Source: Candidatus Eiseniibacteriota bacterium (lineage in GTDB: Bacteria; Eisenbacteria; RBG-16-71-46; SZUA-252). Taken from it: a DNA stretch of 64,000 nt. The notes beneath the pieces were generated by a model. The model did no database searches. It was not told the origin of the DNA and saw only the letters and a program-made list of their open reading frames with translations. Positions 2,388 through 62,784 of this stretch are shown piece after piece; within the stretch, counting starts at the first letter, position 1; every line of letters begins with the position of its first letter. The position numbers and the translations under genes are program-made. Location: assembly GCA_036505295.1 (NCBI GenBank), contig DASXTQ010000042.1, forward strand, positions 6,769 through 70,768, written 5' to 3'.

Positions 2388-2402
2388 TGGCATAGTGGTT
2401 GC
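2388..2402 (+). promoter_or_regulatory. Sigma54 (RpoN) -24/-12 promoter TGGCAT-N5-TTGC, about 80 nt upstream of the 2481 CDS
   Basis: Sequence gaTGGCATagtggTTGCtcctat matches the sigma54 consensus (TGGCAY-N5-TTGC, GG/GC spacing correct). Confidence 0.55.
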
Positions 2403-2480
2403 TCCTATACAGCTCCCGGACGGGGAAGGGCCACACTCAGTGGCTCTCACCAACGGTCGGCAAACTAGGAGGAAAAGACC

Positions 2481-2933
2481 ATGAGGCGATTACCCTTATG
2501 GATCGTGTGCTCCGCCATGGCGGTCTCGCTGACCGCGGCGGCGCCGAATGCGGGCGCGGGCACGAGTGTCTCCATCAACATGCGCGTGGGGGATCCCTAT
2601 CGCGGCCCTAGCCTTGAGTTCCGTCACGAGCCGGACGTCGTCTTGGTACCGGACACGCGCGTCTATTACGTTCGTGACTACGACTACGACATCTATCGGT
2701 ACGGCAACTATTGGTACTACACCTACGACGGAGGTTGGTACCGCGCGCGGCGCTACAATGGCCGCTACGTCTACATCGGCTATGAGTCGGTGCCACGCGC
2801 CGTGGTTATGGTGCCTGTGAAATACCGCAAGCACTGGCGCGAGCCGGGACACGGTAACGCTTACGGGCACTACAAAGATGCCCGCAACGACAAAGGGCAC
2901 GGGCGTGGCCGCGGGCGCGGACACGGGAATTAG
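2481..2933 (+). CDS. Secreted Tyr/Trp/Arg-rich protein of unknown function (paralog 1; VYYVRDYDYDIYRYG..WYY.YDGGWYRAR motif)
   Basis: ATG preceded by AGGAGG RBS. N-terminal signal peptide (MRRLPLWIVCSAMAVSLTAAAP). Shares about 60 aa of near-identical core with the ORF at 3217. Confidence 0.75.
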   Translation: MRRLPLWIVCSAMAVSLTAAAPNAGAGTSVSINMRVGDPYRGPSLEFRHEPDVVLVPDTRVYYVRDYDYDIYRYGNYWYYTYDGGWYRARRYNGRYVYIGYESVPRAVVMVPVKYRKHWREPGHGNAYGHYKDARNDKGHGRGRGRGHGN

Positions 2934-2965
2934 AAACGAGAACCACGCAGGATAGCGAACAACTG

Positions 2966-2990
2966 GGGCCCTCCTGGGGGGGCCCTTTTC
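2966..2990 (+). terminator. Rho-independent terminator (GGGCCC-8 nt loop-GGGCCC followed by TTTTC)
   Basis: GC-rich palindromic stem followed by T-tract 30 nt after the stop codon at 2933. Confidence 0.5.
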
Positions 2991-3139
2991 ATTACCGGGC
3001 GACCCCGGGACCCGGATTCGGCCCCTGTGGCCAATTAGCCACCCTTCGGTACGGTGAGTCTACAGGGGGACAGATACACACACCGGAGAGTCTGATATAA
3101 GTTAAGCGTATTCAATGTCTTACGCGCCAAAGGAGGCCG

Positions 3140-3154
3140 TGGCACAGGCATTGC
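3140..3154 (+). promoter_or_regulatory. Sigma54 (RpoN) -24/-12 promoter TGGCAC-N5-TTGC, about 63 nt upstream of the 3217 CDS
   Basis: Sequence cgTGGCACaggcaTTGCtctat is a perfect consensus match. The extended -12 region is the same as at 2399 and 47521. Confidence 0.6.
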
Positions 3155-3216
3155 TCTATCTATGGCCAGATCGCCCCCAGGGCGATGGTAGCAACCAAAG
3201 GAAAAGGAGGGTCCTC

Positions 3217-3804
3217 ATGAAACGGCTATTCAGTTGGACCGCATGCATGGCGTTCGCGCTCGCGCTGAGCTCCTTGACGTCGAGCGCGCTCGCGAGGACC
3301 AGCGTTTCGGTCGACCTGCATTTTGGTGACCGATACCGTGGCCCAGACGTCGTTTTTTATGATGATCCCGATGTCGTCGTGGTACCCGGCACGCGCGTCT
3401 ACTACGTCCGCGACTACGACTACGACATCTATCGGTGCGGCAGGTTCTGGTACTACAACTACGACGGCGGCTGGTACCGCGCGCGTAGTTACCGGGGCCC
3501 GTGGATCTATGTCGGGTATCGTTCCGTGCCGCGGGAGATAAGCTACGTGCCTCATCGCTATCGCAGGCACTGGAGCGACTTCCGCGCCGAGCCGAGGTAC
3601 ACGTATCGCGACTCACGTTCCCGTGACCGTACCTGGCAGGAACGGGATCGCGGCGTACAGAACCGGGATCGCGGCGTACAGAATCGGGATCGCGGCGGGC
3701 AGAATGATCGCGGCGGGCAGAATCGGGATCGGGGTGGGCAGAATCGGGATCGGCGTGATCGCGATCGCAATGACCGCGGCTGGGATGGAAGGCAAGATCG
3801 GTAA
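3217..3804 (+). CDS. Secreted Tyr/Trp/Arg-rich protein of unknown function (paralog 2) with C-terminal RDRG(V/G)QN heptad-repeat tail
   Basis: ATG with AGGAGG RBS (aaggagggtcctcATG) and signal peptide MKRLFSWTACMAFALALSSLTSSALA. Core VVVPGTRVYYVRDYDYDIYRCGRFWYYNYDGGWYRAR is shared with the 2481 ORF. Confidence 0.75.
   Translation: MKRLFSWTACMAFALALSSLTSSALARTSVSVDLHFGDRYRGPDVVFYDDPDVVVVPGTRVYYVRDYDYDIYRCGRFWYYNYDGGWYRARSYRGPWIYVGYRSVPREISYVPHRYRRHWSDFRAEPRYTYRDSRSRDRTWQERDRGVQNRDRGVQNRDRGGQNDRGGQNRDRGGQNRDRRDRDRNDRGWDGRQDR
3640..3762 (+). repeat. About six tandem copies of a 21-bp unit (aa(c/t)cgggatcgcggcg(t/g)(a/g)cag) encoding a (N)RDRG(V/G)Q low-complexity tail
   Basis: Directly visible tandem repetition in sequence. 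One unit is shortened to 18 bp. Confidence 0.8.
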
Positions 3805-4006
3805 CGACATCTCCGCCTGACCAAGTCACCGATGAGGGGGTCCCGCAATGGGACCCCCCTCTCTTTTTGGATGAGCCGCCCCCTGCCCATAATAAATCCG
3901 GTAGGATCGGTGCGTGGCCGGGCGCGTGGTGGCGGCAACGCGCCGACCCGACACGCTGTGCCGAATGAGTCCGGATACGCCGACCGAAGTACAGGGGGGA
4001 AGCGGC

Positions 4007-13233: not shown

Positions 13234-13246
13234 TGAACGGGAGCGG

Positions 13247-14662
13247 TCAGCCGACCGATCCCTCCATTTGGAGTTGGATGAGACGGTTCATCTCGACCGC
13301 GTACTCCATGGGCAGCTCCTTCGTGATCGGTTCGATGAACCCGTTCACGATCATGGCGGATGCTTCCGCCTCCGGGATGCCGCGGCTCATGAGGTAAAAG
13401 ATCTGCTCGTCGCCGATCTTCGAGACCGTCGCCTCGTGTCCGATCGTGACCTGATCCTCCTCGATTTCCATGTACGGATAGGTGTCCGACCGGGAATGCT
13501 CGTCCAGAAGGAGCGCGTCGCAGCGAACGGTGGACTTGCTGCCCTTGGCCCCCTTCGCGACCTTGATGAGCCCGCGGTAGCCCGCGCGGCCGCCGTCCTT
13601 GCTGATCGACTTGGACACGACGCTCGAGGTGGTGTTCGGCGCGGCGTGGACCGCCTTGCCGCCGGCGTCCTGGTGCTGGCCCTTGCCGGCGAACGCGATC
13701 GAAAGGATCTCCGCGTGCGCGCCCGGCTCCATAAGGTAGACGCTCGGATATTTCATCGTGAGCTTGGACCCGAGGTTCGCGTCCACCCACTCCATCCGTG
13801 CGTTGCCGTAGGCCATGGCACGCTTGGTGACCAGGTTGTACACGTTGTTCGACCAGTTCTGGATCGTGGTGTAGCGGCAGTAGGCGCCGCGCTTCACGAT
13901 GATCTCGACCACAGCCGAGTGAAGCGAATCGCTCGCGTAGGTCGGAGCCGTGCAGCCCTCGACGTAATGCACCGAGGCGCCCTCGTCCACGATGATGAGG
14001 GTCCGCTCGAACTGACCCATGTCCTTCGCGTTGATCCGGAAGTACGCCTGAAGCGGGAGATCCACCTTCACGCCCTTCGGCACATAGATGAACGAGCCGC
14101 CGCTCCACACCGCGCTGTTCAGCGCGGCGAACTTATTGTCCGAAGGCGGAATGACCGTCCCGAAGTATTCCCGGAAAAGCTCCGGGTGCTCCTTCAGCGC
14201 GGTGCCCGTGTCGAGGAAGATGACGCCCTTCTCCGATAGGCTCGCCTTGATCTTGTGGTAGACCGTCTCGGAGTCGTACTGGGCGCCCACGCCGGAGAGA
14301 AACTTCTGCTCCGCCTCGGGAATGCCCAGACGATCGAAGGTCTTCTTGATGTCGGCCGGGACCTCGTCCCAGGTCTTGCTCTGCTCCTCGGCCGGCTTCA
14401 GGTAGTAATAGATGTTCTGGAAGTCGATCTCCTCGACCTTGCCCCCCCAGCGGGGCAGAGGCTTCTTCTCGAACTGCTCGAGCGCCTTCAGACGAAACTC
14501 CTTCATCCAGGCGGGCTCGTTCTTGATGTCGGAGATCTGCGAGACGACTTCCTTGTCGAGTCCGCGGCGCGTCTTGAAGACGGACTTCTCCTCGTCGTGG
14601 AAGCCGTACTTTTCCTTGTATCCTTCTCGGATATCCAGCGTCGGCTGCTGTGTCGTTGTCAT
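13247..14662 (-). CDS. sufB: Fe-S cluster assembly protein SufB
   Basis: 471 aa. Strongly conserved SufB sequence throughout. Confidence 0.9.
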
Positions 14663-14680
14663 GGTTGCCTCCCGGCCGCC

Positions 14681-15451
14681 CTAAGCGGCCTGGTCCTCGC
14701 GGATCCAGTCATATCCCTGCTTCTCGAGCTCGAGCGCAAGGTCGGCCCCGCCGGACTTGACGATCCGCCCGTCCACGAGCACGTGGACGAAGTGCGGCTT
14801 AATGTAGTTCAAGATCCTCTGGTAGTGCGTGATCAAGAGCACGCCCAGGTCCGGTCCCGTCAGCGCGTTCACGCCTTCGGAGACGATCCTGAGCGCGTCG
14901 ATGTCGAGTCCCGAATCGGTCTCGTCCAGAATCGCGATCTCGGGCCTTAGCACGGCCATCTGCAAGATTTCCGCGCGCTTCTTCTCACCGCCCGAGAAAC
15001 CGTCGTTCAGGTAACGGCCCGCGAACGACTCGTCCATCCTGAGTAGAGCCATCTTCTCCTTGACGAGCGTCCGGAATTCCTTGGGCGGGATCGGCTTCTC
15101 CTCGCCCAGCTCCTTCCGCCGCACGTTCAGCGCGTTCCGGAGGAAATTCGCGACGCTCACGCCCGGGATGGCCGTCGGGTACTGGAACGCGAGGAAGATG
15201 CCCTTCCGCGCGCGCTCGTCCGGGGAAAGCTCGAGGACGTCCTCGCCCTTGTAGAGGATCGTTCCGTCCGTCACCTCATATTTGGGATTCCCCATCAGCG
15301 CGTTCGCGAGCGTGCTCTTGCCCGATCCGTTCGGTCCCATCAGGGCGTGGATCTCACCCTTGTTCACGGCCAAGGAAAGGCCCTTCAATATGGGCTTCCC
15401 GTCGATCGAGATGTGCAGATTTCGAATCTCCAGCGTCGGTGTAGCGCTCAT
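14681..15451 (-). CDS. sufC: Fe-S cluster assembly ATPase SufC
   Basis: Start at [12 protein letters not shown] with AAGGAGA RBS. ABC ATPase with Walker [10 protein letters not shown] and ABC signature. Confidence 0.9.
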
Positions 15452-15474
15452 GTTCTCCTTCCGTGTGTTCTGGC

Positions 15475-15867
15475 CTAAAGTGTGAAGCTGTCCCCGCATC
15501 CGCACGTCTTCTTGACGCGCGGGTTCTTGAACTGGATCCCGGTCCCTAAGAGCCCGCGTTGGTAGTCGATCTCCGTCCCCGCGAGAACATCCAGCGAGCG
15601 CGGATCCACATAAACGGTCAAGTCCTCGTATTCGAGCACGGTGTCGCTGCCGCGACGTTCCGTCGTGAAACCAAGAAAGTAGCTGTACCCAGAGCAACCC
15701 CCCGCCTTGACCCCGATGCGAAGCGCCTGCCCTTCCTTGCCTTCGTTCCCGCGGATACGCTTCACGTAGTCCACGGCGGCAGGCGTGAGGGAGATGGAGC
15801 TCGTCCCCTGGGGTTCGCGGGTCTCGGTCTCCGTCGTGCGAATGTCGTTTGTTGGCTCTTCGCTCAT
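15475..15867 (-). CDS. sufA: A-type Fe-S carrier (HesB/IscA/SufA family)
   Basis: Conserved C-x(n)-CGCG ligand pattern (GGCSGYSY ... KTCGCGDSF). Confidence 0.85.
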
Positions 15868-16397
15868 GGGTTCTCCGGCGCGATGTGGAGCACGATCCTA
15901 TCGGATCGGCCCGGGTCGGTGTGGAAGCCCGCGACGAGCGCCGGCTCCTCCTTCATGCCATGATCCTCGGGGCAATGCGGGCAGTCCTGCTGCGTCGTTC
16001 GCGGCGGCCGGCATGCTTGGCAGGTACGCAGATACTCGAGCGTTCCTTCCAGCTCGCGCGCGAGCGTCTCGTACCGGATGATCGCCTGGCGCGTCTCCGT
16101 GAGCTTCTCCTGGAACGTTTCGCGCACGACGGCCATCGCCTCGGGGCCGTACCGGCTCCCGTGCCAGGCCTTGAGCAGGCCTTGAATCTGATGGAGCGAA
16201 AGCCCCGTTTCTTGGAGGAGCTCGATCCACCGGATTCGCGTGATGGCGGACTCGTCGTAGAGCCGAAATCCCCCGTTGCTGCGCGCAACCGGATGGAGCA
16301 GGTCGAGCTCCTCGTAGAGCCTGAGCGCCCGGACCGACTTGCCGGTCTGCCTTGCCAAGTCGCCAACCTTGAGGTGTTTTGAAACGACCGCTGCCAT
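15864..16397 (-). CDS. MerR-family transcriptional regulator with C-terminal Cys-rich cluster (C-x2-C-x10-C-x-H-C)
   Basis: N-terminal MerR HTH ([26 protein letters not shown]). Start at M7 (MAAVVSK) with GGGAGGG RBS. The first in-frame ATG at 16415 lies upstream of the predicted transcription start. Confidence 0.75.
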
Positions 16398-16419
16398 ACG
16401 ATCCCTCCCGTACATCTAC

Positions 16420-16666: not shown

Positions 16667-17044
16667 ATGAAGCTGATCCAGGGCGCGCTGCTAGCCATCT
16701 TGATCCTCGTGCTCGGTGTTACAGCACTTTCTTGCAAGAAGAAGTCGAACCCCGTGGCACCCGGCGGTGGGGCCGACGTGACGATCGACATCGTCGCGGA
16801 CATGAACGCCGGGGCGTTCGGCGGCAAGCGTACCGTCGCCGTGGGCAAGACAGTTGCCTGGCGGAACACCCGCGGCACGACGCATACGTCCACCTCTGAA
16901 GGTGGCCCAGCAGGCGGCCAGTGGGACACCCAAGGGATCAGCCCAAGCGCCACGAGCGCGCCCATCCAAATGAACACGGTCGGAACGTACCCGTACGAGT
17001 GCACCATCCACCCGAGCATGAAAGACACGCTCGTGGTCCAGTAG
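16667..17044 (+). CDS. Cupredoxin-fold (plastocyanin/azurin-like) blue-copper lipoprotein
   Basis: GGAGG RBS. Lipoprotein signal (LGVTALSCKKK). C-terminal copper-ligand motif YPYECTIHPSMKD (Cys-x2-His-x2-Met) with upstream His. Confidence 0.7.
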   Translation: MKLIQGALLAILILVLGVTALSCKKKSNPVAPGGGADVTIDIVADMNAGAFGGKRTVAVGKTVAWRNTRGTTHTSTSEGGPAGGQWDTQGISPSATSAPIQMNTVGTYPYECTIHPSMKDTLVVQ

Positions 17045-33346: not shown

Positions 33347-34162
33347 CTATCCTCCCAAGGACCCGATCATGACGATCGGGCCGGTCGGCTCGTTCCGGGT
33401 AGGCGCCCCGCCCTGGGGCTCGAGAGAGATCGCGAACGCGGTCAGACCGGCCGGATCACCGATGTCTTCGATGCGGAGCACGGCGCGTCCGCTCGGATCG
33501 GGGCGAATGAGCCCGAGCGACACCGGCGTATTGCCGCGGAGAGCCCAAAGCTCGTAGTCGCGTCCGCTCGGAGCCTTGAAGTTCTGGAACACAAGGATCG
33601 CGCGGTGCGTTTCGGGATCCACCGTCGCGCGTGCGCGAAGCTCGGCCTCCCCGGCCGGTGTGAGCGAGAAGGAAGCGGTCCGGGCACCGGGCGAGGCCAG
33701 CACCGCGGCCCAACGCCGCTCGGCGTCGAGATCGCGCGTGAGGTTCTGGACCTGGTCGCGGGCGCGGTTCAAATCCTTCCTCAGGCGGGTCGTCGTCGTG
33801 AGAAGGATTCCCGTCGCGAGAAGGAAGCAGGCCGCCAGCGCCCAACCCAACTGGGGCGGCGGCGCCCACCGTTTCTTCGTCGGAAGGATCCGCCCATCCT
33901 TCGAGCGCCCGCCCTCCGCACCCGCATCGGCGCGCACCGCGGCGAGCACCCTCGCTTTGATCGCGGGGCTGGGCAGCGCCGGGGGGGCCGAGGCCGCAAG
34001 GAGCACCGCGCTACCGCCGAAATCGCGGAGCGCGCCCTCGCAGACGGGGCACGCTTCGCCGAGGTGCGCCTCGAGCCGGCTCCGGTCGGCCTCGTCGAGG
34101 CACCCGAGCACGTACGCCGCGCAAAGATCGAGATGCTCGTCGCGATGTTGGCTCACGCCCAC
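33347..34162 (-). CDS. Anti-sigma factor (zinc-finger anti-sigma N-domain + RskA-like C-terminal domain)
   Basis: N-terminal H-x3-C ... C-P-V-C zinc motif. Central TM segment. C-terminal anti-sigma-K/RskA-like domain. Overlaps the ECF sigma gene by 10 bp. Confidence 0.75.
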   Translation of the reverse strand: MGVSQHRDEHLDLCAAYVLGCLDEADRSRLEAHLGEACPVCEGALRDFGGSAVLLAASAPPALPSPAIKARVLAAVRADAGAEGGRSKDGRILPTKKRWAPPPQLGWALAACFLLATGILLTTTTRLRKDLNRARDQVQNLTRDLDAERRWAAVLASPGARTASFSLTPAGEAELRARATVDPETHRAILVFQNFKAPSGRDYELWALRGNTPVSLGLIRPDPSGRAVLRIEDIGDPAGLTAFAISLEPQGGAPTRNEPTGPIVMIGSLGG

Positions 34163-34710
34163 TCCTCGTGCGGTAGAAGCTCACGCAGCCTCGTGAGAGC
34201 CTGCCGCGTCCACGATTTCACGGTGCCGAGCGGCGCGCCGAGCCGCGCGGCGATCTCCATCTGGGAAAGTCCGTCGAAGTAGGCGCTCTCGAGCACGCGG
34301 CGGTGCTGCGGCTCGAGGGAGCCCAGCGCAATCCGGACGCGCTGGCCAATCTCGTTTCGCGCCGGGCGCGAAGAGGGATCCTCCGCCGGTTGAGGAAGAC
34401 TGGTTTCGGCCTGAGCCTCGGCGCGTTTGCGCGAAGCGGCGCTCCGATAGCGGTCGAGCGCCCGCGTGCGCGCCACGGTCAATAGCCAGCCCGCCACGGG
34501 ACCCCGCCGGCCGTCGTATGTCGATGCGGTCCGCCATACCTTGACCCAGGCTTCCTGCAGGGCGTCCTCCGCCTCGGCGCGCGAGCGCAGGATCCGCAGT
34601 ATCACCGGATAGATCAGCGGCGTGTACCGGTCGTAAAGCTCCTCCAGCGCGCGCGAATCGCCGGCGATCAAACGCCTGATGCTTGCGACGTCCTGCTCCT
34701 GCCGAGTCAT
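34153..34710 (-). CDS. ECF-subfamily RNA polymerase sigma-70 factor
   Basis: Region 2 (YDRYTPLIYPVILRIL...DALQEAWVKVW) and region 4 (DGLSQMEIAARLGAPLGTVKSW) motifs. Confidence 0.85.
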   Translation of the reverse strand: MTRQEQDVASIRRLIAGDSRALEELYDRYTPLIYPVILRILRSRAEAEDALQEAWVKVWRTASTYDGRRGPVAGWLLTVARTRALDRYRSAASRKRAEAQAETSLPQPAEDPSSRPARNEIGQRVRIALGSLEPQHRRVLESAYFDGLSQMEIAARLGAPLGTVKSWTRQALTRLRELLPHEEWA

Positions 34711-42540: not shown

Positions 42541-44211
42541 ATGGACGTTCGCACGGTTCCCGACCTGCTCCGCCACGCTCTCGAAGTACACAGGAAGCCG
42601 GACGCGTTCTTGGTGAAGCGCGAGGGCCTGTGGGTTCCGGTTTCGATCGATTCGTTCGCGAATCAAGTGCGTGCGCGGGCGGCGGATCTCACCAGGCGCG
42701 GCGTCGTACGCGGAGACCGCGTGGCCATCTTCTCCGAGAACCGGATCGATTGGGCGGTTGCGGACCAGGCGGTGCTCTCGATCGGTGCTGTGTGCGTCCC
42801 GATCTATGCGACCTTGCCCGCGGACCACGTGGGCCCCTTGCTCGCCGATTGCGGTGCAGTTGGAGCCTTCGTGTCGAGCGAGGCGCAGCGCGCGAAGGTG
42901 GAGTCGGTGCGCCCGCAAACGCCCGGGCTCAAGTGGGTGGTGAGCTTTGACGTGGACGGGGCACCGCAAGCAGGGTCGCCGGCCGCGCCAGCCGCGACGC
43001 CCCCGGGCCCCGACGACCTCGCGACCATCATCTACACCTCAGGCACGACCGGCGTCCCCAAAGGCGTCATGCTCACGCACGGCAATCTTGTCTCGAACGC
43101 GCTCGCCTCCTTGACCGCGCTCGACCTGGGACCCACCGACGTCCACCTCTCCTTCCTTCCTCTGAACCACATCTTCGAGCGCACCGCGGGCTACAACGTC
43201 ATGGTCTACGCAGGAGCGACGATCGCCTACGCCGAGTCGATTGAAAAGGCTGCGGCCAATCTGATGGAGGTGCGGCCCACGTTGCTGCTCGCGGTTCCGC
43301 GCTTCTACGAGAAGTTGATCGATCGCATCATGGAGGTGGCGAAGGCGGCCGGGTTCCCACGGGACGTGATGGCGGTTTGGGGGCGCAACGTGGCCCAGAA
43401 GTGGGCGGCCCTCAAGCTCGGGGGGCGACCGATCCCGCCTGGCATCGCGCTCCAGCACGCGCTCGCGAACGTCTTGGTCTATCCGGTCCTGCGCCGCCGG
43501 CTCGGTGGTCGCATCCGATATTGCTTCTCCGGCGGCGCTGCACTGCCGCGCGAGATCGGACTTTTCTTCTACGGCGTGGGCATGCCCGTCATGGAGGGCT
43601 ATGGCTTGACCGAGACGTCGCCCGTGATCGCCGTGAACACGGAGAAGCGCTACAAGCTCGGGACGGTCGGGTGTCCCATTCCCGGGGTGGACGTGCGCAT
43701 CGCGGAGGACGGAGAGATCCTCGTGCGCGGCCCGTCCGTAATGAAGGGCTACTGGAATCGGTCCGAAGAAACCGCGACCGCTTTGGAGGGCGGGTGGTTC
43801 CACACCGGCGACATCGGCGAGATCGACGCGGACGGGTTCCTGCGCATCACGGATCGCAAGAAGGACCTCATCGTCACGAGCGGCGGAAAGAAGATCGCGC
43901 CGCAGCCGATCCAGAACGCGCTCAAGAAATCTCCGCGGATCCTGGAAGCGATCGTGGTCGGCGACGGCCGGAAATACGCAACCGCGCTGATCGTCGCGGC
44001 CAACGGAGCGACGCGCGAGGCAATCGCCGCGGACGTGGACAGCGTGAACAAGACGCTTGCTTCCTATGAGACGATCAAGCGCTTCGAGCTCATCCCAAAC
44101 GATCTGACGGTTGAGAACGGCTCGTTGAGCCAAAAGTTGGAAGTGAAGCGCCGCGTGATCTCGGATCGGTACCGAGATCTGATCGAGAAGATGTACCATG
44201 GGGAAGAGTGA
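42541..44211 (+). CDS. fadD: Long-chain-fatty-acid--CoA ligase (AMP-dependent synthetase)
   Basis: AMP-binding motif IIYTSGTTGVPKGV. Typical FadD length. Confidence 0.85.
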   Translation: MDVRTVPDLLRHALEVHRKPDAFLVKREGLWVPVSIDSFANQVRARAADLTRRGVVRGDRVAIFSENRIDWAVADQAVLSIGAVCVPIYATLPADHVGPLLADCGAVGAFVSSEAQRAKVESVRPQTPGLKWVVSFDVDGAPQAGSPAAPAATPPGPDDLATIIYTSGTTGVPKGVMLTHGNLVSNALASLTALDLGPTDVHLSFLPLNHIFERTAGYNVMVYAGATIAYAESIEKAAANLMEVRPTLLLAVPRFYEKLIDRIMEVAKAAGFPRDVMAVWGRNVAQKWAALKLGGRPIPPGIALQHALANVLVYPVLRRRLGGRIRYCFSGGAALPREIGLFFYGVGMPVMEGYGLTETSPVIAVNTEKRYKLGTVGCPIPGVDVRIAEDGEILVRGPSVMKGYWNRSEETATALEGGWFHTGDIGEIDADGFLRITDRKKDLIVTSGGKKIAPQPIQNALKKSPRILEAIVVGDGRKYATALIVAANGATREAIAADVDSVNKTLASYETIKRFELIPNDLTVENGSLSQKLEVKRRVISDRYRDLIEKMYHGEE

Positions 44212-44531
44212 GGCCGCAGCTCTTGGATTGAGGCCGCCGGGCCGCCCACTGAAGTGGGTACCCACTGCCGGCTTGTGTTCGATGCTCTAATCCGCTATAC
44301 TGCCGGCGTTTCCGCTCCAACTCCCACGGAGCAGTCGAACGGGGGTGCGATGGCCCGCTTCTCCTACTACCTCAGCAGGCAGTGCCTCCACGGGATCATA
44401 TCGCGTTCCATTGATTCATCTGGTCCGCTCGGTTACGCGCATCTTGCTTTGACACGCGGGCTCCGGGCCATGGAATGGCCACTGGCCTCCCCCGGCCAGA
44501 GCCCTCGCCGGCAGGAAAGTTGGTTAGTGAT

Positions 44532-44855
44532 ATGAAAAGGGATCGCGGGTTTGCTCTGCTGCTGCGATTGCTCGTTGGCTTCATTTTCGCGGCCGCACTT
44601 GCGTTGGCAGTTGCTTCGGCGTCACCGCCAGGCGCGTGGGCCAGGACTGCGCCCACGACCGTGGCGTCGGGGGATCCAACGGGCGGAGAGGATTCTCCGA
44701 GCCCGGGACCGAAAAAGGCCACAACGCTAAGAATCGGATCTCAGGGAAGCTCGACCTCGAGCGCTATGCCGTCAGCCCGCCGATACTCAATTTGGCACTG
44801 GTTGGATGACTGGAAAGTGATCGTCGACTCGATTCGAGCAAGGTACCCACTCTAG
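44532..44855 (+). CDS. Hypothetical small membrane/secreted protein
   Basis: ATG with hydrophobic N-terminus (MKRDRGFALLLRLLVGFIFAAALALAVASA). Weak RBS. No homology recognised. Confidence 0.3.
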   Translation: MKRDRGFALLLRLLVGFIFAAALALAVASASPPGAWARTAPTTVASGDPTGGEDSPSPGPKKATTLRIGSQGSSTSSAMPSARRYSIWHWLDDWKVIVDSIRARYPL

Positions 44856-44963
44856 GCCGCTCGAGATCAGGAACGAATCCTTGAAAACGCCCTCTTTACA
44901 TCATGCTCTTAGAGAGATCCGCGATGCCCTTGACAAGGGCATGTACAAAGAGGCGTTGGACTA

Positions 44964-47168
44964 TTGCGAGCGCATTGCCCTGAATCTGGTCACGCCCCAG
45001 AGGTAACAGGTCGGATCGGCGCCCTCAAGCTCGATGCATTCGCAGGACTGGGTCGTTGGCGAGAACTGGTTGCGCTCGGCTCCACCTTGATCGCCGGTTT
45101 AACCTCAAACCGAGAAAGCGAGGCCCTGGGTCGCGTTCACGGACTTACGGGCTTCGGCTATCTGAGACTTGGTGAAATGCGTCTGGCCGAACGCCACCTT
45201 CGAGCCGCCATTCACGTCTACACATGGGATTTGGATGACCTGCCTGCGGCGCTTCGTCAACAGCGGCGACTTTCACTTCTGTACCTCAGTTTGGGTCTCC
45301 TACGCCAATCCTGTTCTGAAATGGAGACCGCCATAGAGATTTCCGATAAGAATTCATGCACATCGGAATCTGGCATCCTGCGGGTCAACCTAGCCGTAGC
45401 GATGAGTAAGCTTGGTACCTTGGAGAAGGTACCCAAATACCTCGACGAGGCGGATGAACTCCTCAGGAGCGCTTCCCGCAAGAAATGGCTCTTGCTTTCA
45501 GCCCTCGTTCGGGCGAATTACCTACGCATCACAGGGCACCCCACGAAGGCGCTCGAAATCCTCGTGCCCGCACTTCAGATGACACGTGAGCAGCGTTACT
45601 CGCGTGAAGAGGCAATTGCTCTCGAATACATCGGCGATTGTTACCTCGCGAAGAGAGATTACAAGCAGGCGCTGGAGCAGTATGAAGGCGCGCTCAAGAT
45701 TGCGGAAGTGACCGCTCCTGATGGCGACCTTATACCCGAACTGAGCCACCGGATGGGCGAGACGTTCATCCGCCTCGGCGATCCGAACGCCGCGATTCTA
45801 CTTTGTGAGCGTGGATTCCGCGTGGCCCGAGCTTTGGGCGATCGGTACGAAGAATGTGCGACCCATCGCGTCTACGCCATGGCGCATCGTGCCGCGGGGA
45901 ATCCCAAGAAGGCGCTCCGTATCGTTGATGAAGGAATCGATCTTGGCAGACAGTACGATATTCCATACGAACTCGGCCGGGCGCTCACATGGGCAGGTGA
46001 GACGCGGTTGCAAGAGCTGGGCCCCGATGAGCAAGCACACGGTAGGCAGCAACTCTGGGAAGCGCGCGCGATATTCGAACGCATGGGACTGCTACCTTGG
46101 GTTCGATCGGTAGATCGCCTGCTCGGATTTGAATCCCAGCCCGAGGCTGCTCTCGATCAGCCGAGCATATCCGCGCTGGATAATCTCGGTGACCTTGATC
46201 GGGGTGCGCTTCGCTTCGGCATCGTTACTTGCAATCGTAAGGTTCGCGAAGCCGTGGAAATTCTGCAGAGCGTCGCACCGAGCCAGATTCCTGTCCTTAT
46301 CACGGGCGAGAGCGGAGTGGGTAAAGAGCTACTTGCTCAGGCGCTCCATCAGATGGGTCCTCGTCGAAAGGAACCCTTCGTACCGGTGAACTGTGGGGCC
46401 ATCTCGGTCAATCTTCTCGATAGCGAATTCTTCGGACATGAACGAGGGGCGTTTACCGGTGCCATTTCGTCCCGTGAGGGTCTGCTCGCCTCCTCCGACA
46501 AGGGGACCCTGTTTCTCGACGAGGTCGGGGAGCTTCCCTCACAAGTTCAGGCCGCCCTACTTCGGGTGTTGGAGACCGGCGAGTTGCGTGCGGTCGGACG
46601 GGACGACGTTAGGAAAATCGAGCTTCGAATCGTTGCGGCTACCAACACGAGGCTTGAGGATCTTGTCGATCGCGGGCTCTTCCGCCAGGACCTCTTCTAC
46701 AGACTCAACGGCATTCGCGTCACAATTCCTCCGCTCCGCGAGCGTGAAGAAGACATAAGGGCATTGTTCCGCTACTTCTGGTCCCAAGCGACCACGGCTG
46801 CAAAGAAGCGCCTCACGATCGAGGACGGCGTCGAGACGGTGCTCTGCGCGTATGACTGGCCCGGTAACGTGCGAGAGCTTCGGCACGAGATCGCTCGCGT
46901 CGTCGCGCTCGCACCCGATAGGTCATTGGTTCGAGGTGAGTCGTTCTTGCCCCAAGTCCAGCGAAAGGACATCGCCTCTCTTCGTCGGGATCGCGAACGG
47001 CGTGATGAAGTGGCGGAGGAACGGTTGCAGATTCTATCGGCTTTGCGCGCCCATCGCGGGAACAAGGCTGAGGCCGCCCGGAGCCTGGGAGGGATGAAAC
47101 GCACCACTCTGATCTACAAAATCGAGCGCTTGGGAATCCGACCCGAGGAGTACCAAGTTAAGGAATAG
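44964..47168 (+). CDS. Sigma54-dependent transcriptional activator (bEBP) with N-terminal TPR-like sensor domain instead of a receiver domain
   Basis: AAA+ sigma54-interaction domain (GESGVGKE, GAFTGA, ...VRELR). C-terminal Fis-type HTH. N-terminal about 400 aa of TPR-like repeats. 5' end probably continues upstream in another frame (see findings). Confidence 0.8.
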   Translation: MRAHCPESGHAPEVTGRIGALKLDAFAGLGRWRELVALGSTLIAGLTSNRESEALGRVHGLTGFGYLRLGEMRLAERHLRAAIHVYTWDLDDLPAALRQQRRLSLLYLSLGLLRQSCSEMETAIEISDKNSCTSESGILRVNLAVAMSKLGTLEKVPKYLDEADELLRSASRKKWLLLSALVRANYLRITGHPTKALEILVPALQMTREQRYSREEAIALEYIGDCYLAKRDYKQALEQYEGALKIAEVTAPDGDLIPELSHRMGETFIRLGDPNAAILLCERGFRVARALGDRYEECATHRVYAMAHRAAGNPKKALRIVDEGIDLGRQYDIPYELGRALTWAGETRLQELGPDEQAHGRQQLWEARAIFERMGLLPWVRSVDRLLGFESQPEAALDQPSISALDNLGDLDRGALRFGIVTCNRKVREAVEILQSVAPSQIPVLITGESGVGKELLAQALHQMGPRRKEPFVPVNCGAISVNLLDSEFFGHERGAFTGAISSREGLLASSDKGTLFLDEVGELPSQVQAALLRVLETGELRAVGRDDVRKIELRIVAATNTRLEDLVDRGLFRQDLFYRLNGIRVTIPPLREREEDIRALFRYFWSQATTAAKKRLTIEDGVETVLCAYDWPGNVRELRHEIARVVALAPDRSLVRGESFLPQVQRKDIASLRRDRERRDEVAEERLQILSALRAHRGNKAEAARSLGGMKRTTLIYKIERLGIRPEEYQVKE

Positions 47169-47509
47169 GTCGTCCCGAGAGGGCAGTCGCCACCCGCCTT
47201 TGTCCTCAATCTATTGCCGCTGAATAGATTATCCCCGATTTCTTGGGGTCAATGACCCCGACCGCCGCGTGAGCCAATTCTCGCTTTTTCTGGCTCTCAC
47301 GAGCCAGTCTGCCTAAGCCATTGTTCCGTATCAGGTAAGCCTCGATAACGGAGCCGCATCACGCTGTCCCCCGTTCATGTGGGGGAGATTCCCCCAATCT
47401 TTCCCACGGTCATCAGGCTGGCAGATTTTTGGCCGATTAGGGTGGTCCGTAAGTAACTGACTAGCAGCAAGTTGTGTTTGTCCGCGTCAAACCCGCTTCC
47501 GACGCCCTG

Positions 47510-47524
47510 TGGCACCTGCGTTGC
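47510..47524 (+). promoter_or_regulatory. Sigma54 (RpoN) -24/-12 promoter TGGCAC-N5-TTGC, 58 nt upstream of the lipoprotein ATG
   Basis: ctgTGGCACctgcgTTGCcctat is a perfect consensus match. Located directly downstream of the bEBP gene. Confidence 0.65.
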
Positions 47525-47581
47525 CCTATTGGCTGGCCAGGAATGAGGGCCACGGAGGGCGGTGAAACAAGGAGGCGGGCA

Positions 47582-47785
47582 ATGGAACGGACCAGGAACT
47601 TGAAAAACGGACTCAAGGCAGCGACGGTGGCGTTCTTCCTCGCGGCAGCTCTTCTCTCCACGGGTTGCAGCAACAACGCGCTGATGAACCCGCAGCCAGA
47701 CTTGGGCGCGCAGGGCAGCCAGACGGCGCACCCGACGGGTGGAAACGAACTCAACCCGACTGGCGGTAACGAGCTGAATCCGTAG
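47582..47785 (+). CDS. Small lipoprotein with tandem PTGGNELN repeats
   Basis: AAGGAGG RBS. Lipobox LLSTGC. C-terminal two exact 24-bp/8-aa repeats. Confidence 0.65.
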   Translation: MERTRNLKNGLKAATVAFFLAAALLSTGCSNNALMNPQPDLGAQGSQTAHPTGGNELNPTGGNELNP

Positions 47786-47791
47786 GCCCCG

Positions 47792-50700
47792 TCAAGATAC
47801 GGGCGCCTTTGGAGTGATCGCCGACAGAGTGGAGGACACATGAGGACTCCCGAGGTAGGTCTTGCGGTCGTCAGCATTGAGTCTACCGGCAATCTCTCGG
47901 ATGATCCTCAGAGCATGGGTCGAACGCGATTGCGCGGCCCTTACGTCCCCGCGTTGGGAAGCAAGCCTTCCCAATGCATAGCTCATTTTCCACGCGGCCT
48001 CCAACACTCCAGCAGTTTCCGCGTAGGCGAGAGCGCGCTCCATCGTCGGCACCAAGACGCTGGCACTGTCGATGTAGGGGTTCTCAGTTATGATCTCAGC
48101 CAGGGCTACACCTCCATGGATCTGGATGAGAACGAGACCTTGGGATTCGGCATTCAGAATCAGGCTGATGATCGCCCCTACCGCAGCATTTGGATCAAGT
48201 TTGGAATTCAACCTCTGCATTTCGATCTGGACCCCAGGTAGATCCTCCCAGTCCAACGTTTCGAGCAAGGCTTTCTCGGCCTTCGCGAGGAAACTCCTCG
48301 CTGCTTCTGGATCGCCCTGAATCGACGCAATTCTCCCGAGTAACCAATCCAACCTGGGCTTTACTTCAAGCGAGCCGTAATCATTCACAATTCGCTGAGC
48401 ATCCCGCACCAGCGTCTCCGCTTCGGCATATGAGCCAATGTGAAACAAGGTCAAAGCTTCCAGCTCCATAGCTTTGGCCATTTGGCCGAGGTCGTTCAAC
48501 GCCTCAGCCGTAGCCCTTCCGTGCCGCGCCATGTCGATCGCCTCCATATACTCAGCAAGGAGGATCCGGTTGATGGCAGCCCCTGAACAGGCGGCAACGA
48601 ATTCGAATGCACTTCCCATACGGACCGCCCAACGAGACGACAACGCGTGCTGATCAACCGCTTCGCGGATTCTGCCGAGTGCGTATAGGATTCCGCCACG
48701 ATTGGAGAGGATGCGAGCCTTGAATGAGTCGTAGCCGGACCTCTCCGCGATATCCCATGCTTCTGTGATCCAATCCAGTGATTCTGGCACCTTGCTTGAA
48801 TAGAACGCAGCTGTTGAAAGGGCATTGCAGATACGCATCCGCCAGTAATCGTTACAGTTGAATTCGAGCCCTCTTTCCAGGATCCGTGTGGCTTCTGCAC
48901 GCTCTCCCGTCCGTACCAGCGCTGCCCCAAGCCCATATGTCAGGGAGGCCAACTCATCATCGATGCCGGGCGTGCCCTCGTAAAGCTCCAGGATCTTGCG
49001 AATCCTCTCTATCGCTGCACGCCGAGTCTCACCCCCTCGGTGCCGCCACTCTATCTCTGCGAGTCCCGCGTGGCTGCGCAGAAGCAAGACGGGATCAGGA
49101 TTCCCACGTGCGAGATCTATCGCGCTTGAAAACCGCACGCCGGCCTCATCTAGTCTCCCCAACGATGCGAATATGACGCCCAATTGGTACTCACGTGATG
49201 CCCTTAGCGGCCCGGAATCTGGTTCGGTCTCCCAGGGAAATTGCTCGCGCAGATAAGACTCTGCTCGTTTGTCATCGCCGGCCTTATGGAGAATCTCGGA
49301 AAGCATTAGGGATACTTCGCGCGCCAATTTGATGTCCTTGGTTTCAGTTACGATTCCAAGGCAGCGCTCAAGTCGGGAACCGGCTCGGCGATAATCCCCC
49401 CGCTTCGCAGCCTCCTCTGAGGCCCATAGGCCTTCGCGCAAGGCCCCGGAATCTGGTTGATAGGCCAAAGCGAGGTCCGCTCTTTCCTCCCTACTCAGGG
49501 GTCCATCTCCCAAGGCGAGTAGGGAGAGCGCGCAGCGCTCTCGCAGCACCTCCCCGGCCCTCTCGCGAACGACCACGCGTATACCTTCAGAAGAGATCTT
49601 CACTCGCGATCCAGACAACCTAATCCATCCCTTCGCGTGTAACCCGGCGAGTAGGTCAGGCCCCAGATCACGGTCGAATATCAATTCACTCTGGGTTGAA
49701 GGAACCCCCGAAGGCAGGATCTCTAGAGTTACGAGGGTCCGCTTCTCATTCTCGCTTAGCCGATCCCAGGCCGAAGACCAGGGATCCAGGATCCCAGGAA
49801 TCTGGATTGACTGAATTTGCTGATTCTCCCGGAAGAACCAACAGTTCTCGCGACGTGCAATGAGGTGCTGCTTGATGAGCGAAAGTATCGCGGCGCTAAG
49901 GGCCCGGCCGTTCCCACCTGAGATCTCGTTGATCTTAGAAACAAGAGGCCTTTCAAATCGGGAACCGCCCAGATATCCATTTACAAATCCAGGGATATCG
50001 ACCAGAGAAAACGGTGGCAGTATTAGTTCGCTCTCAAATGATTCGAGCTGGGTGATAGGAATTGTTGTAAGAGCGACGAGCAGTACCCTTCTTCTCTCGG
50101 ATCGCTCAAGAGAAAGGGCCCACAAGTACCGCGCTAGCGGGCGAAATACCCCAACCATCGCATCTGCATCATCGGAAGATGGCGTTGTCCAGACGATGAT
50201 AGAATCATCGCTCGCTGAGGCCCACAGTTCCTCCGCGATGCCAGCAGGGCTCTCACCGCTCTCGGTCACAGCGTTCCCCAATAGCTGACGAATCTGGACC
50301 GCCAGGGTTGAATCCGTAGCGAGAGATAATTGAACAGGCCGAGCACCCCTGGAGATCGCCCGTTGCGCGACCTCCTCCATCAGGGCCCTTTTCCCAATCC
50401 CCGGTTCCCCTGTGACATAGAGCAAAGTCGGCGTGCCGGGCTCCTCCGAGAACAGCAATCTCTCGATCTCCGCAATTTCCTTCTCGCGTCCGACGAGCTT
50501 CCCGCCAAGGATCTCACCAATGCGATCCTCGACGCCGAAGCCCTCCATGAATTCGTCGGCGCTGCCCTGCCTGAGCCCGGGCTGGCGCTCCAGCGCGCGC
50601 ATGACGACACGCTCGAGATCCACGGGCACTCGAACGCCATGCACGCCCGGCGAAGGAACCCAACCCTCGAGTTGCCCCGAGATCACTTCTCGTACGGTAC

Positions 50701-51298
50701 GTCCCTCGAAAGGATGCTTGCCGGTAAGGGCTTCATACGCCATCACGCCGACCGAATACAGATCACTCCGAACATCGGCGGGCGCGCCCTCCCAGACTTC
50801 GGGAGCCGCATACCCGGGCGTCCCGGAGAGTCCAGCCGCGGATCCGCCGCTCCCTCCCATTCCGACGTCGGTGATCTTCACGACCCCACCGGCGCCCAAC
50901 AGAATGTTTCCGGGCTTCAAGTCCCCGTGGATTTCTCCGTGGCAGTGGAGGTGCGCGAGCCCGCGTAGGAGGCTTGTCAAAATGCGCCGGACCTCATCCG
51001 CGGACTGCGGCTCGCCCATTTTCCGTACCCAATCGGCCCCCTCGATGAACTCCATCGTGTAGTAGGCCTCGCCGGAGGGCAGCGCGCCCCAGTCGAAGAC
51101 CTGGATCAGGTTCTCGTGGCGTATTTGGCGGAGGGTGTCGAACTCGCGTCGAAGGAACGCTGATTCGGCGGGTGTGACCAGCTTCAACGCAAGCTCGCGA
51201 TCGCGTATCGAGTCATAAACCCGATACACGCGGCTCGAGCCCCCCTCACCGAGGAGGGAACGGACTTCGTAACGCTTTGGAATCGACGGGGATGTCAT
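47792..51298 (-). CDS. Multidomain Ser/Thr protein kinase - AAA/STAND ATPase - TPR repeat protein
   Basis: Hanks kinase motifs (VYRVYD...ALKLV, HGDLKPGNILL, DVGMGG, GTPGYAAPE). P-loop GEPGIGKR. Extensive C-terminal TPR-like repeats. 1168 aa. Confidence 0.85.
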   Translation of the reverse strand: MTSPSIPKRYEVRSLLGEGGSSRVYRVYDSIRDRELALKLVTPAESAFLRREFDTLRQIRHENLIQVFDWGALPSGEAYYTMEFIEGADWVRKMGEPQSADEVRRILTSLLRGLAHLHCHGEIHGDLKPGNILLGAGGVVKITDVGMGGSGGSAAGLSGTPGYAAPEVWEGAPADVRSDLYSVGVMAYEALTGKHPFEGRTVREVISGQLEGWVPSPGVHGVRVPVDLERVVMRALERQPGLRQGSADEFMEGFGVEDRIGEILGGKLVGREKEIAEIERLLFSEEPGTPTLLYVTGEPGIGKRALMEEVAQRAISRGARPVQLSLATDSTLAVQIRQLLGNAVTESGESPAGIAEELWASASDDSIIVWTTPSSDDADAMVGVFRPLARYLWALSLERSERRRVLLVALTTIPITQLESFESELILPPFSLVDIPGFVNGYLGGSRFERPLVSKINEISGGNGRALSAAILSLIKQHLIARRENCWFFRENQQIQSIQIPGILDPWSSAWDRLSENEKRTLVTLEILPSGVPSTQSELIFDRDLGPDLLAGLHAKGWIRLSGSRVKISSEGIRVVVRERAGEVLRERCALSLLALGDGPLSREERADLALAYQPDSGALREGLWASEEAAKRGDYRRAGSRLERCLGIVTETKDIKLAREVSLMLSEILHKAGDDKRAESYLREQFPWETEPDSGPLRASREYQLGVIFASLGRLDEAGVRFSSAIDLARGNPDPVLLLRSHAGLAEIEWRHRGGETRRAAIERIRKILELYEGTPGIDDELASLTYGLGAALVRTGERAEATRILERGLEFNCNDYWRMRICNALSTAAFYSSKVPESLDWITEAWDIAERSGYDSFKARILSNRGGILYALGRIREAVDQHALSSRWAVRMGSAFEFVAACSGAAINRILLAEYMEAIDMARHGRATAEALNDLGQMAKAMELEALTLFHIGSYAEAETLVRDAQRIVNDYGSLEVKPRLDWLLGRIASIQGDPEAARSFLAKAEKALLETLDWEDLPGVQIEMQRLNSKLDPNAAVGAIISLILNAESQGLVLIQIHGGVALAEIITENPYIDSASVLVPTMERALAYAETAGVLEAAWKMSYALGRLASQRGDVRAAQSRSTHALRIIREIAGRLNADDRKTYLGSPHVSSTLSAITPKAPVS

Positions 51299-62605: not shown

Positions 62606-62784
62606 TCTCCTTTGGGCTGTCTACAATCTCCCGACGCGAAGAGGTTGGGGTTCCACCCCAAGGCACGCAGGCGCTTGCACCGGGCATGCCACGATCAGCC
62701 GTCCGGCACTCTGCGTCCGTATCCTTCTGGTATCCGATTCCTTACCGGTTTGCCGGCTTCCAAAGAGCCCTGCCCGCTCCGGCG

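What the first reader, a model, noticed from the sequence alone, without database searches (positions are those of the whole stretch)
47510..47524. Three sigma54 promoters share an extended TTGCyCTAT -12 region
The elements at 2388-2402 (TGGCATagtggTTGCTCCTAT), 3140-3154 (TGGCACaggcaTTGCTCTAT) and 47510-47524 (TGGCACctgcgTTGCCCTAT) agree on the canonical GG/GC positions. They also agree on the seven bases following TTGC. That degree of agreement across two distant loci argues for functional conservation, i.e. a common regulon of small secreted repeat proteins, rather than chance.
Basis: seen in the sequence. Interest (0 to 1): 0.7.

Follow-up and report, generated by a model that had tools for sequence, protein, structure and literature searches.

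The report
Three sigma-54 promoters, separate enhancers
The three sites look like genuine sigma-54 promoters in front of small exported proteins of a soil Candidatus Eisenbacteria genome, but the extra shared 'CTAT' is only a soft preference and the promoters sit under different enhancers, so this is a well-conserved but ordinary example of a known kind of gene control.

Summary
The three TGGCAY-N5-TTGC elements at 2388, 3140 and 47510 are real. They are the only exact matches in the window (3 found, 0.12 expected). Each is intergenic, correctly oriented and 72-93 bp upstream of a gene for a small exported protein.

Comparative data support them as sigma-54 promoters. Sites 1 and 2 precede tandem paralogs of an uncharacterised secreted family of Ca. 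Eisenbacteria. In that family, 33 of 37 genes from 23 loci have their own strong -24/-12 element 58-94 bp upstream of the ATG. Site 3 lies in a conserved cassette: a TPR sigma-54 activator gene, the promoter, a mini-lipoprotein gene, then a convergent Ser/Thr kinase gene.

The claim that seven bases after TTGC agree is overstated. Only CTAT is shared, and site 1 needs a 1-nt shift. In orthologs of sites 1 and 2 these bases drift even at 91-95% protein identity. In six lineages of site 3, TTGCCCTAT is invariant. The family logo shows only a weak Y-T-A preference at -10 to -8.

The upstream enhancer-like dyads differ: TGTGGC-N6-GCCAC at -115 for site 2, none for site 1, and other dyads for site 3. 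All three belong to the sigma-54 regulon, but nothing points to a dedicated common regulon. This is a new member of a known kind.

The parts
2388..2403 (+). Site 1: sigma-54 -24/-12 promoter of gene 1 (TGGCATagtggTTGCT; CTAT at 2405-2408)
   Evidence: The orthologous element is kept in L003 and L031-L041, but the bases after TTGC vary.
2481..2933 (+). Gene 1: 150-aa secreted Tyr/Trp-rich protein with a GHGRGRGRGHGN tail; family without a Pfam, NCBIfam or PDB match
2965..2986 (+). Intrinsic terminator after gene 1
3026..3064 (.). Enhancer-like dyads upstream of site 2: TGTGGC-N6-GCCAC (3026-3042, centred near -115), followed by a weaker GTAC-N8-TAC
   Evidence: Block conserved in the alignment of 10 family promoters. 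A TGTG[AGC]C or GTGCAC core lies at -99 to -134 in 18 of the 31 family promoters scanned.
3110..3122 (.). A/T-rich ATTCAATGTCTTA between enhancer and promoter, possibly an IHF-type bend site (inferred)
   Evidence: Conserved TTA and CTAAC blocks. The match to WATCAANNNNTTR has one mismatch, judged by eye.
3140..3155 (+). Site 2: sigma-54 promoter of gene 2 (TGGCACaggcaTTGCT; CTAT at 3156-3159)
   Evidence: Conserved in L003, L031-L041 and L014.
3217..3804 (+). Gene 2: 195-aa paralog of gene 1 (51% identity) with a 21-bp tandem repeat at 3635-3752
3836..3858 (+). Intrinsic terminator after gene 2
44964..47168 (+). Sigma-54 activator (bEBP): TPR N-terminus, AAA+ Sigma54_activat domain with GAFTGA, HTH_8. 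The true start codon is uncertain.
47290..47307 (.). Dyad CTGGCTC-N4-GAGCCAG, about 211 bp upstream of site 3; candidate activator site
   Evidence: The arms are kept with symmetric changes in L043 (TGGCCAG/CTGGCCA) and L049 (TGGTCAG/CTGACCA).
47380..47396 (.). Dyad TGGGGGA-N3-TCCCCCA, about 122 bp upstream of site 3; best-placed candidate enhancer
   Evidence: CCCCCA is invariant in six lineages; the left arm is kept in four.
47510..47529 (+). Site 3: sigma-54 promoter with conserved extension (TGGCACctgcgTTGCCCTAT)
   Evidence: TTGCCCTAT is invariant in the window, L025, L043, L044, L047 and L049, while spacer positions -19, -18 and -16 vary.
47582..47785 (+). 67-aa mini-lipoprotein (lipobox LSTGC; C-terminal TGGNELNP x2)
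   Evidence: Orthologs of 49-77 aa with other duplicated C-terminal heptads.
47792..51298 (-). Ser/Thr protein kinase with AAA_16 and TPR domains, convergent with the lipoprotein gene; syntenic partner of the activator
62676..62691 (-). Possible fourth sigma-54 promoter (TGGCATgcccgGTGCA), 86 bp upstream of a 346-aa lipoprotein gene; no CTAT
   Evidence: Not tested in relatives.

Best explanation
All three elements are sigma-54 (RpoN) promoters. RNA polymerase carrying sigma-54 binds the GG at -24 and the GC at -12 and forms a closed complex. An AAA+ enhancer-binding activator, bound at an upstream dyad, must then remodel it by DNA looping. The products are short monocistronic mRNAs for small exported proteins. 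The promoters belong to two separate control units. Sites 1 and 2 head tandem paralogs of a secreted Tyr/Trp-rich family specific to Ca. Eisenbacteria. In that family almost every gene copy carries its own -24/-12 element. Usually only one copy per cluster (site 2 here) has the conserved TGTGrC...GyCAC dyad about 115-123 bp upstream. Its activator is encoded elsewhere. Site 3 belongs to a conserved cassette of a TPR activator gene, the promoter, a mini-lipoprotein gene and a convergent Ser/Thr kinase gene. It has its own, different dyads and is most likely fired by the adjacent activator. The shared CTAT just after -12 reflects a soft pyrimidine-T-A preference at -10 to -8, the A/T-rich stretch where melting starts. 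That stretch is fixed in the site 3 lineage and drifts in the lineages of sites 1 and 2. It is not a signature of a dedicated common regulon. Shown: the motifs, their conservation, the gene context and the differing upstream dyads. Inferred: transcription starts, which activator acts where, and the role of positions -10 to -7.
For: Motif statistics: 3 exact matches against 0.12 expected, and the top three consensus scores in the window. No sigma-70-like promoter is found in these intergenic regions, and terminators follow genes 1 and 2. Family-wide conservation: 22 of 22 genome loci have a strong site upstream of the homolog. Of 37 family genes, 33 have a site scoring at least 20 of 22, located 58-94 bp from the ATG, and tandem paralogs each have their own. 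Every exact TGGCAY-N5-TTGC match in the 49 fetched loci lies at a family-type or site-3-type promoter position on the gene strand. The logo carries information only at -26..-20 and -15..-11, with 0.31-0.37 bit at -10..-8. TTGCT-type promoters have Y at -10 in 17/17, T at -9 in 12/17 and A at -8 in 9/17. Close relatives change the bases after TTGC: cctatac / cctttac / ttaattc for gene 1, and ctatc / tttac / cttac / ctaat for gene 2. Site 3: an activator with a Sigma54_activat domain and GAFTGA lies immediately upstream. The synteny and promoter are kept in L043, L044, L047 and L049, with TTGCCCTAT invariant. Enhancers differ: the family dyad is present at site 2 and absent at sites 1 and 3, and an nhmmer profile of the family upstream region does not hit sites 1 or 3. 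The architecture and distances fit published sigma-54 rules: an enhancer 70-150 bp upstream, sometimes far downstream, with no common enhancer consensus (PMC3844500). Sigma-54 control of envelope and lipoprotein functions is a known theme (PMC3162934).
Against: There are no transcription start or expression data. rpoN itself is not in the window and was not looked for in the source genome. Site 1 has no recognisable enhancer within its 74-bp intergenic region, so activation from the site 2 enhancer about 640 bp downstream is only an inference. The CTAT coincidence is nominally unlikely (about 1e-3 in a test defined after the fact). TTGCCCTAT is strictly invariant in the site 3 lineages, so some specific function of these bases cannot be excluded. 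No sigma-54 promoter set independent of these two gene groups was available to establish a lineage-wide consensus.
Confidence: 0.8

Rival explanations
1. One reading: TTGCyCTAT is a functional extended -12 element that marks a dedicated common regulon of small secreted repeat proteins, controlled through one shared factor.
For: CTAT lies at nearly the same offset in all three promoters of this genome, about 1e-3 in a test defined after the fact. TTGCCCTAT is invariant in six lineages of site 3. All three products are small exported proteins with C-terminal repeats.
Against: Orthologs of sites 1 and 2 at 91-95% protein identity do not keep CTAT. The family logo has under 0.4 bit per position there. 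There is no shared upstream dyad. Site 3 has its own adjacent activator. The possible fourth promoter at 62691 lacks CTAT. Gapped similarity downstream of TTGC between sites 2 and 3 is at chance level.
Confidence: 0.08
2. For site 3 only: the invariant CCTAT is part of a larger conserved block running from -15 to the start codon. That block would serve something other than sigma-54 contact, for example an operator for a second regulator overlapping the promoter, or a 5' leader element.
For: The whole segment from TTGC to the ATG is much more conserved than the upstream intergenic DNA. An imperfect palindrome spans 47515-47558.
Against: No base pair of the predicted leader structure shows compensatory change; the covariation term is +0.22 kcal/mol. 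No Rfam family matches. The palindrome is only 75% complementary and needs indels. The conserved segment also contains the ribosome-binding site and the start region, which explains part of the conservation.
Confidence: 0.15
3. The matches are chance occurrences of the consensus and not promoters.
For: No experimental data. Consensus scans alone are weak evidence.
Against: 3 exact matches against 0.12 expected. All are intergenic, on the gene strand and at promoter distance. They are conserved across dozens of diverged loci while the flanking DNA changes. An activator gene is adjacent to site 3.
Confidence: 0.03

Closest known systems
Enhancer-dependent sigma-54 (RpoN) promoters, consensus TGGCACG-N4-TTGCW (e.g. 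glnA, pspA and zraP in enterobacteria)
   Same: GG/GC elements with the canonical spacing, W mostly at -11, and an A/T-rich stretch after -12. Upstream dyads lie about 100-125 bp away, with an A/T-rich region between them and the promoter. An AAA+ activator with GAFTGA is present. Salmonella promoters also show TTGCTTT, TTGCTCT and TTGCAAT (PMC3844500).
   Different: The host is an uncultured phylum (Ca. Eisenbacteria). The -10..-8 preference reads Y-T-A rather than W-W-T. Site 3 has C at -11. In tandem clusters, several core promoters appear to share one recognisable enhancer.
zraP and pspA-type sigma-54-controlled small envelope proteins
   Same: Small exported or envelope-associated proteins, some with His/Gly-rich tails, each transcribed from its own sigma-54 promoter. 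This comparison rests on my own knowledge and is an analogy only.
   Different: No sequence or fold similarity was found. The function of the Eisenbacteria family is unknown.
NtrC-family activators with non-receiver N-terminal domains, paired with Ser/Thr kinases (as in myxobacteria)
   Same: AAA+ sigma-54 interaction domain plus a Fis-type HTH, and a conserved neighbourhood with a Ser/Thr kinase.
   Different: The N-terminus is TPR, not a receiver or FHA domain. The kinase carries AAA_16 and TPR domains. The apparent target is a 49-77 aa lipoprotein.

Membership tests
Sigma-54-dependent promoter | GG at -24 and GC at -12 with a fixed 10-nt spacing and flanking consensus TGGCAY / TTGC | tested here: met
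   all three are exact matches; 3 found against 0.12 expected.
Sigma-54-dependent promoter | Intergenic, on the gene strand, at promoter distance from a start codon with a ribosome-binding site | tested here: met
   93, 77 and 72 bp from the element start to the ATG, with AGGAGG-type sites upstream of each ATG.
Sigma-54-dependent promoter | Element conserved upstream of orthologs while neighbouring DNA diverges | tested here: met
   33 of 37 family genes; six lineages of site 3.
Sigma-54-dependent promoter | Organism encodes sigma-54 and AAA+ activators with GAFTGA | tested here: inconclusive
   An activator with Sigma54_activat, GAFTGA and HTH_8 lies at 44964-47168. rpoN itself is not in the window and was not searched for.
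Sigma-54-dependent promoter | Upstream activator (enhancer) site, typically 70-150 bp upstream | tested here: inconclusive
   Site 2: conserved dyad at -115. Site 3: candidate dyads at -122 and -211. Site 1: none found.
Sigma-54-dependent promoter | Transcription starts about 12 nt after the GC and depends on rpoN and an activator | not testable with these tools
   Needs TSS mapping or genetics.
   the family dyad is present only at site 2, and the site 3 dyads differ. The GGCCRATTAG resemblance between sites 2 and 3 is not kept in L025, L028 or L029.
   Invariant for site 3, but variable for sites 1 and 2 even in 91-95% relatives. The logo carries 0.3-0.4 bit there.
Bacterial enhancer-binding protein (NtrC family) | Sigma54_activat AAA+ domain with GAFTGA, plus a C-terminal HTH_8 | tested here: met
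   E 3.4e-62; HTH_8 6.4e-07; ERGAFTGA in the sequence.
BcpO-related WXXGXW repeat protein (UniRef label carried by P0065, a family member) | Match to the curated family or repeat model | tested here: not met
   No Pfam or NCBIfam hit for genes 1 or 2, or for 43 family members.

The most novel reading that the evidence does not exclude
In Ca. Eisenbacteria a phylum-specific, uncharacterised family of secreted Tyr/Trp-rich proteins is organised as tandem arrays in which every copy has its own sigma-54 core promoter, but only one copy carries a recognisable enhancer. A single enhancer would then fire two to three promoters up to about 1.5 kb away, including from downstream. In addition, the sigma-54 of this lineage may read an extended -12 element (TTGC-Y-C/T-T-A-T), which is fixed in the activator/mini-lipoprotein/kinase cassette.
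Probability: 0.2. Interest if true: 0.45.

Novelty: new member of a known kind. Interest (0 to 1): 0.3.

Why it matters
It gives a first, purely computational, view of sigma-54 control in an uncultured soil phylum. One view is of a multi-copy secreted protein family that is almost universally sigma-54 dependent. The other is of a conserved cassette of activator, mini-lipoprotein and kinase. It also shows why a short similarity next to a core promoter should not be read as a regulon signature: in sigma-54 systems specificity lies in the enhancer and its activator. Nothing here changes what is known about sigma-54 itself.

Tried and rejected
(1) GGCCRATTAG is shared upstream of sites 2 and 3 (3030-3039 and 47440-47449). 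I estimate a 9-of-10 match between two 200-bp regions is expected about twice by chance. In L025, L028 and L029 the site 3 copy reads GGTCGATTGG. Rejected as a shared enhancer.

(2) An nhmmer profile of the family upstream region, searched against the window and all loci, hits only its own training sequences and nothing at sites 1 or 3.

(3) TGGCCAG lies 9-10 nt after TTGC in both site 2 and site 3. Gapped alignment of the 25-nt tails is not an outlier (P about 0.09), and relatives of site 2 have TGGTCAG, TGGGTGG or TGGGCAG. Rejected.

(4) An RNA structure in the conserved site 3 leader: the consensus fold is weak (-8.4 kcal/mol) and no pair shows compensatory change. Rfam gives no match in the window.

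(6) No activator gene lies within 3-10 kb of any family locus, so the family's activator could not be identified.

(7) More distant activator orthologs (L045, L046, L048; 55-58% identity) have a different gene arrangement and no site-3-type promoter.

Full report
**Observation**

The three elements are present exactly where stated:
- 2388: TGGCATagtggTTGCTcctat
- 3140: TGGCACaggcaTTGCTctat
- 47510: TGGCACctgcgTTGCCctat

The exact pattern TGGCAY-N5-TTGC occurs three times on both strands of the 64-kb window. Dinucleotide-preserving shuffles give 0.12 on average, and none of 100 reaches three. With one mismatch allowed there are five matches against 1.6 expected. On a weighted consensus score the three sites rank first to third in the window, at 21.5, 21 and 20.5 of 22.

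Each site is intergenic and on the strand of the next gene. The distances from the element start to an ATG preceded by an AGGAGG-type ribosome-binding site are 93, 77 and 72 bp. No sigma-70-like promoter is detected in these intergenic regions. Genes 1 and 2 each end with an intrinsic terminator, so they are separate transcription units.

Without gaps, the ten bases after TTGC agree at only 3/10, 2/10 and 4/10 positions in the three pairs. The shared feature is the 4-mer CTAT, at offset 2 in sites 2 and 3 and at offset 3 in site 1.

**What the genes are**

GC content is about 65% and the homologs come from soil MAGs labelled Candidatus Eisenbacteria.

- Gene 1 (2481-2933, 150 aa) and gene 2 (3217-3804, 195 aa) are 51% identical paralogs. 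Both have signal peptides, a Tyr/Trp-rich core (YYVRDYDYDIYRYG.YWYY.YDGGWYRAR) and charged or His-Gly-rich tails. Gene 2 carries a 21-bp tandem repeat.
- Gene 3 (47582-47785) is a 67-aa lipoprotein with a duplicated C-terminal heptad.
- Immediately upstream of site 3 lies a sigma-54 activator gene (44964-47168). It has a TPR N-terminus, a Sigma54_activat domain (E 3.4e-62), a GAFTGA motif and an HTH_8 domain.
- Convergent downstream lies a Ser/Thr kinase with AAA_16 and TPR domains.
- This is the only activator gene found in the window.

**Sites 1 and 2 belong to a family-wide system**

A search of one genome per species found 22 loci encoding family members, most of them labelled Ca. Eisenbacteria. 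All 22 have a strong -24/-12 element upstream of the gene.

A profile search of all ORFs in these loci plus the window found 37 family genes. Of these, 33 have an element scoring at least 20 of 22, located 58-94 bp upstream of the ATG. Tandem paralogs each have their own element: three each in L010 and L011, and one in front of a 484-aa four-domain fusion in L005. Every exact TGGCAY-N5-TTGC match in the 49 loci fetched lies at such a promoter position on the gene strand. This is strong comparative evidence that sites 1 and 2 are functional sigma-54 promoters.

**Is the extension conserved?**

The logo of 32 family promoters carries information only at two stretches: -26 to -20 (TGGCAYG) and -15 to -11 (TTGCW). 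Positions -10, -9 and -8 carry 0.34, 0.37 and 0.31 bit, with T/C, T and A favoured.

The preference sits in the TTGCT-type promoters:
- pyrimidine at -10 in 17/17
- T at -9 in 12/17
- A at -8 in 9/17

TTGCA-type promoters show no such preference. Y-T-A at -10..-8 occurs in 8 of 34 promoters against 0.5 expected, but these promoters are related by descent, so this is not an independent count.

Syntenic close relatives show the bases drifting:

| Promoter | Window | Relatives |
|---|---|---|
| Gene 1 | TTGCTcctatac | TTGCAcctatac, TTGCTcctttac, TTGCTttaattc, TTGCTccgttaa (protein identity 95-80%) |
| Gene 2 | TTGCTctatctatgg | TTGCTtttacctatgg, TTGCTcttacctatgg, TTGCTctaatgtg |

CTAT directly after -12 is therefore a state specific to the window lineage at sites 1 and 2, within a soft pyrimidine-T-A preference.

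**Site 3 is different**

Orthologs of the activator's N-terminal domain were found at 64-73% identity (L043, L044, L047, L049), together with close relatives (L025, L028, L029). All keep the order activator, small lipoprotein, convergent kinase. L043, L044, L047 and L049 also show the thiolase and AMP-ligase genes upstream.

In the six lineages, GTGGC and TTGCCCTAT are invariant, while spacer positions -19, -18 and -16 vary. L044 even has TGGCCC. The nine-base run is the longest invariant run between -31 and +13.

The whole segment from -15 to the ATG is far better conserved than the upstream intergenic DNA. The constraint on CCTAT therefore cannot be assigned to sigma-54 contact alone. The leader shows no covarying RNA structure, and nothing in the window matches Rfam.

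**Enhancers**

An alignment of ten family promoters shows conserved upstream blocks:
- a dyad TGTGrC-N6-7-GyCAC followed by GTGC-N8-GCAC at about -125 to -85
- GGACAGA at about -75
- CTAAC at about -60
- cTAc-N4-TTAg at about -30

A TGTG[AGC]C or GTGCAC core lies at -99 to -134, mostly -115 to -123, in 18 of the 31 family promoters scanned. Site 2 has it at -115, as TGTGGC-N6-GCCAC at 3026-3042.

The first copies in a cluster, directly after the glycoside hydrolase gene (site 1, L003a, L010a, L011a, L013a, L015a), lack the dyad, as do the second copies in L010 and L011. In 95%-identical relatives the site 1 element starts only 10 bp after the hydrolase stop codon.

Site 3 and two of its orthologs (L043, L047) also lack the family dyad. 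They have two other dyads: CTGGCTC-N4-GAGCCAG at about -211, with symmetric changes in L043 and L049, and TGGGGGA-N3-TCCCCCA at about -122. A profile of the family upstream region does not hit site 1 or site 3. No activator gene lies near any family locus.

Published work states three relevant points (PMC3844500):
- Enhancers usually lie 70-150 bp upstream.
- Enhancers can also act from 1.5 kb downstream.
- Enhancers have no common consensus.

Specificity therefore resides in the enhancer and its activator.

**How likely is the CTAT coincidence?**

I defined a test after the fact: any 4-mer shared by three promoters at about the same offset. It gives about 9e-4 under background or family position-specific models, and 2e-3 among real triples of family promoters. 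Given the TTGCT-type preference, CTAT at -10..-7 has a probability of about 0.07 per promoter (my calculation from the counts). The joint coincidence is then of the order of a few percent. A gapped comparison of the 25 nt after TTGC of site 3 with site 2 is unremarkable (P about 0.09), and two other family promoters score higher.

**Conclusion**

The three sites are best read as genuine sigma-54 promoters belonging to two independent control units. They share membership of the RpoN regulon and a soft A/T-rich extension of the -12 element. They do not share a dedicated regulator.

Sigma-54 control of exported and envelope components, including lipoproteins, is an established theme (PMC3162934). 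The finding is therefore a new member of a known kind. Two points deserve follow-up:
- the near-universal sigma-54 dependence of an uncharacterised, multi-copy secreted family with apparently one enhancer per cluster
- the strictly conserved TTGCCCTAT in the activator/mini-lipoprotein/kinase cassette

A search of the literature library found no paper mentioning both Eisenbacteria and sigma-54.

Noticed in passing
window 62676-62691 (-): TGGCATgcccgGTGCA lies in the intergenic region 86 bp upstream of the ATG (62605) of a 346-aa lipoprotein with a choice-of-anchor X domain. It may be a fourth sigma-54 promoter, and it has no CTAT after -12.
   Followed up: partly
window 3170-3186; L003, L039, L041: The gene 2 leader has a hairpin ATCGCCC-cca-GGGCGAT. 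L003 and L039 have ACCGCCC/GGGCGGT, a compensatory double change that suggests a conserved 5' stem-loop in the mRNA. The gene 1 leader keeps CCCGGACGGGG in the window, L003, L031, L032 and L007.
   Followed up: partly
window 3635-3752: A 21-bp tandem repeat (5.8 copies) encodes RDRGGQN heptads in gene 2. The gene 2 homologs called in related loci are 175-197 aa, so the tail length varies.
   Followed up: partly
L010, L011, L013, L015 (tandem arrays); L005 1217 onward: Family genes form arrays of up to four copies, each with its own sigma-54 element. Only one copy per array shows the upstream dyad. L005 encodes a 484-aa protein made of four family domains behind a single promoter.
   Followed up: partly
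L010 3579, L011 3593, L013 3625: The last paralog in three arrays has a conserved variant element (TGGCAAgagtgTGGC or GGGTAAgagtgTGGC) instead of TGGCAY-N5-TTGC. This could be a degenerate sigma-54 promoter or something else.
   Followed up: no
L041 1339-3456: In an 80%-identity relative, a Pel9A-like beta-helix gene sits between the gene 1 promoter and gene 1. The sigma-54 promoter there apparently drives a two-gene unit.
   Followed up: no
window 44000-50000: GC content drops to 0.56-0.59 over the activator/lipoprotein/kinase cassette, against 0.62-0.70 elsewhere. The cassette nevertheless keeps the same flanking thiolase and AMP-ligase genes in L043, L044, L047 and L049.
   Followed up: partly
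window 47169-47509; L025, L028, L029: L028's activator N-terminus is only 67% identical to the window's. Even so, its intergenic region and lipoprotein gene are about 93% identical at the DNA level, which hints at recombination within the cassette.
   Followed up: no
window 16843-16859 (both strands): The palindrome GGGCAAGACAGTTGCCC scores as a weak -24/-12 match on both strands, inside or next to ORFs. It is probably unrelated to sigma-54.
   Followed up: no
window 9241-16415 (-) and 33347-34710 (-): Housekeeping context: a suf Fe-S assembly cluster (SufB/D, cysteine desulfurase, Rieske protein, ABC ATPase) with a MerR-family regulator, and an ECF sigma factor with an RskA-type anti-sigma factor.
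   Followed up: no
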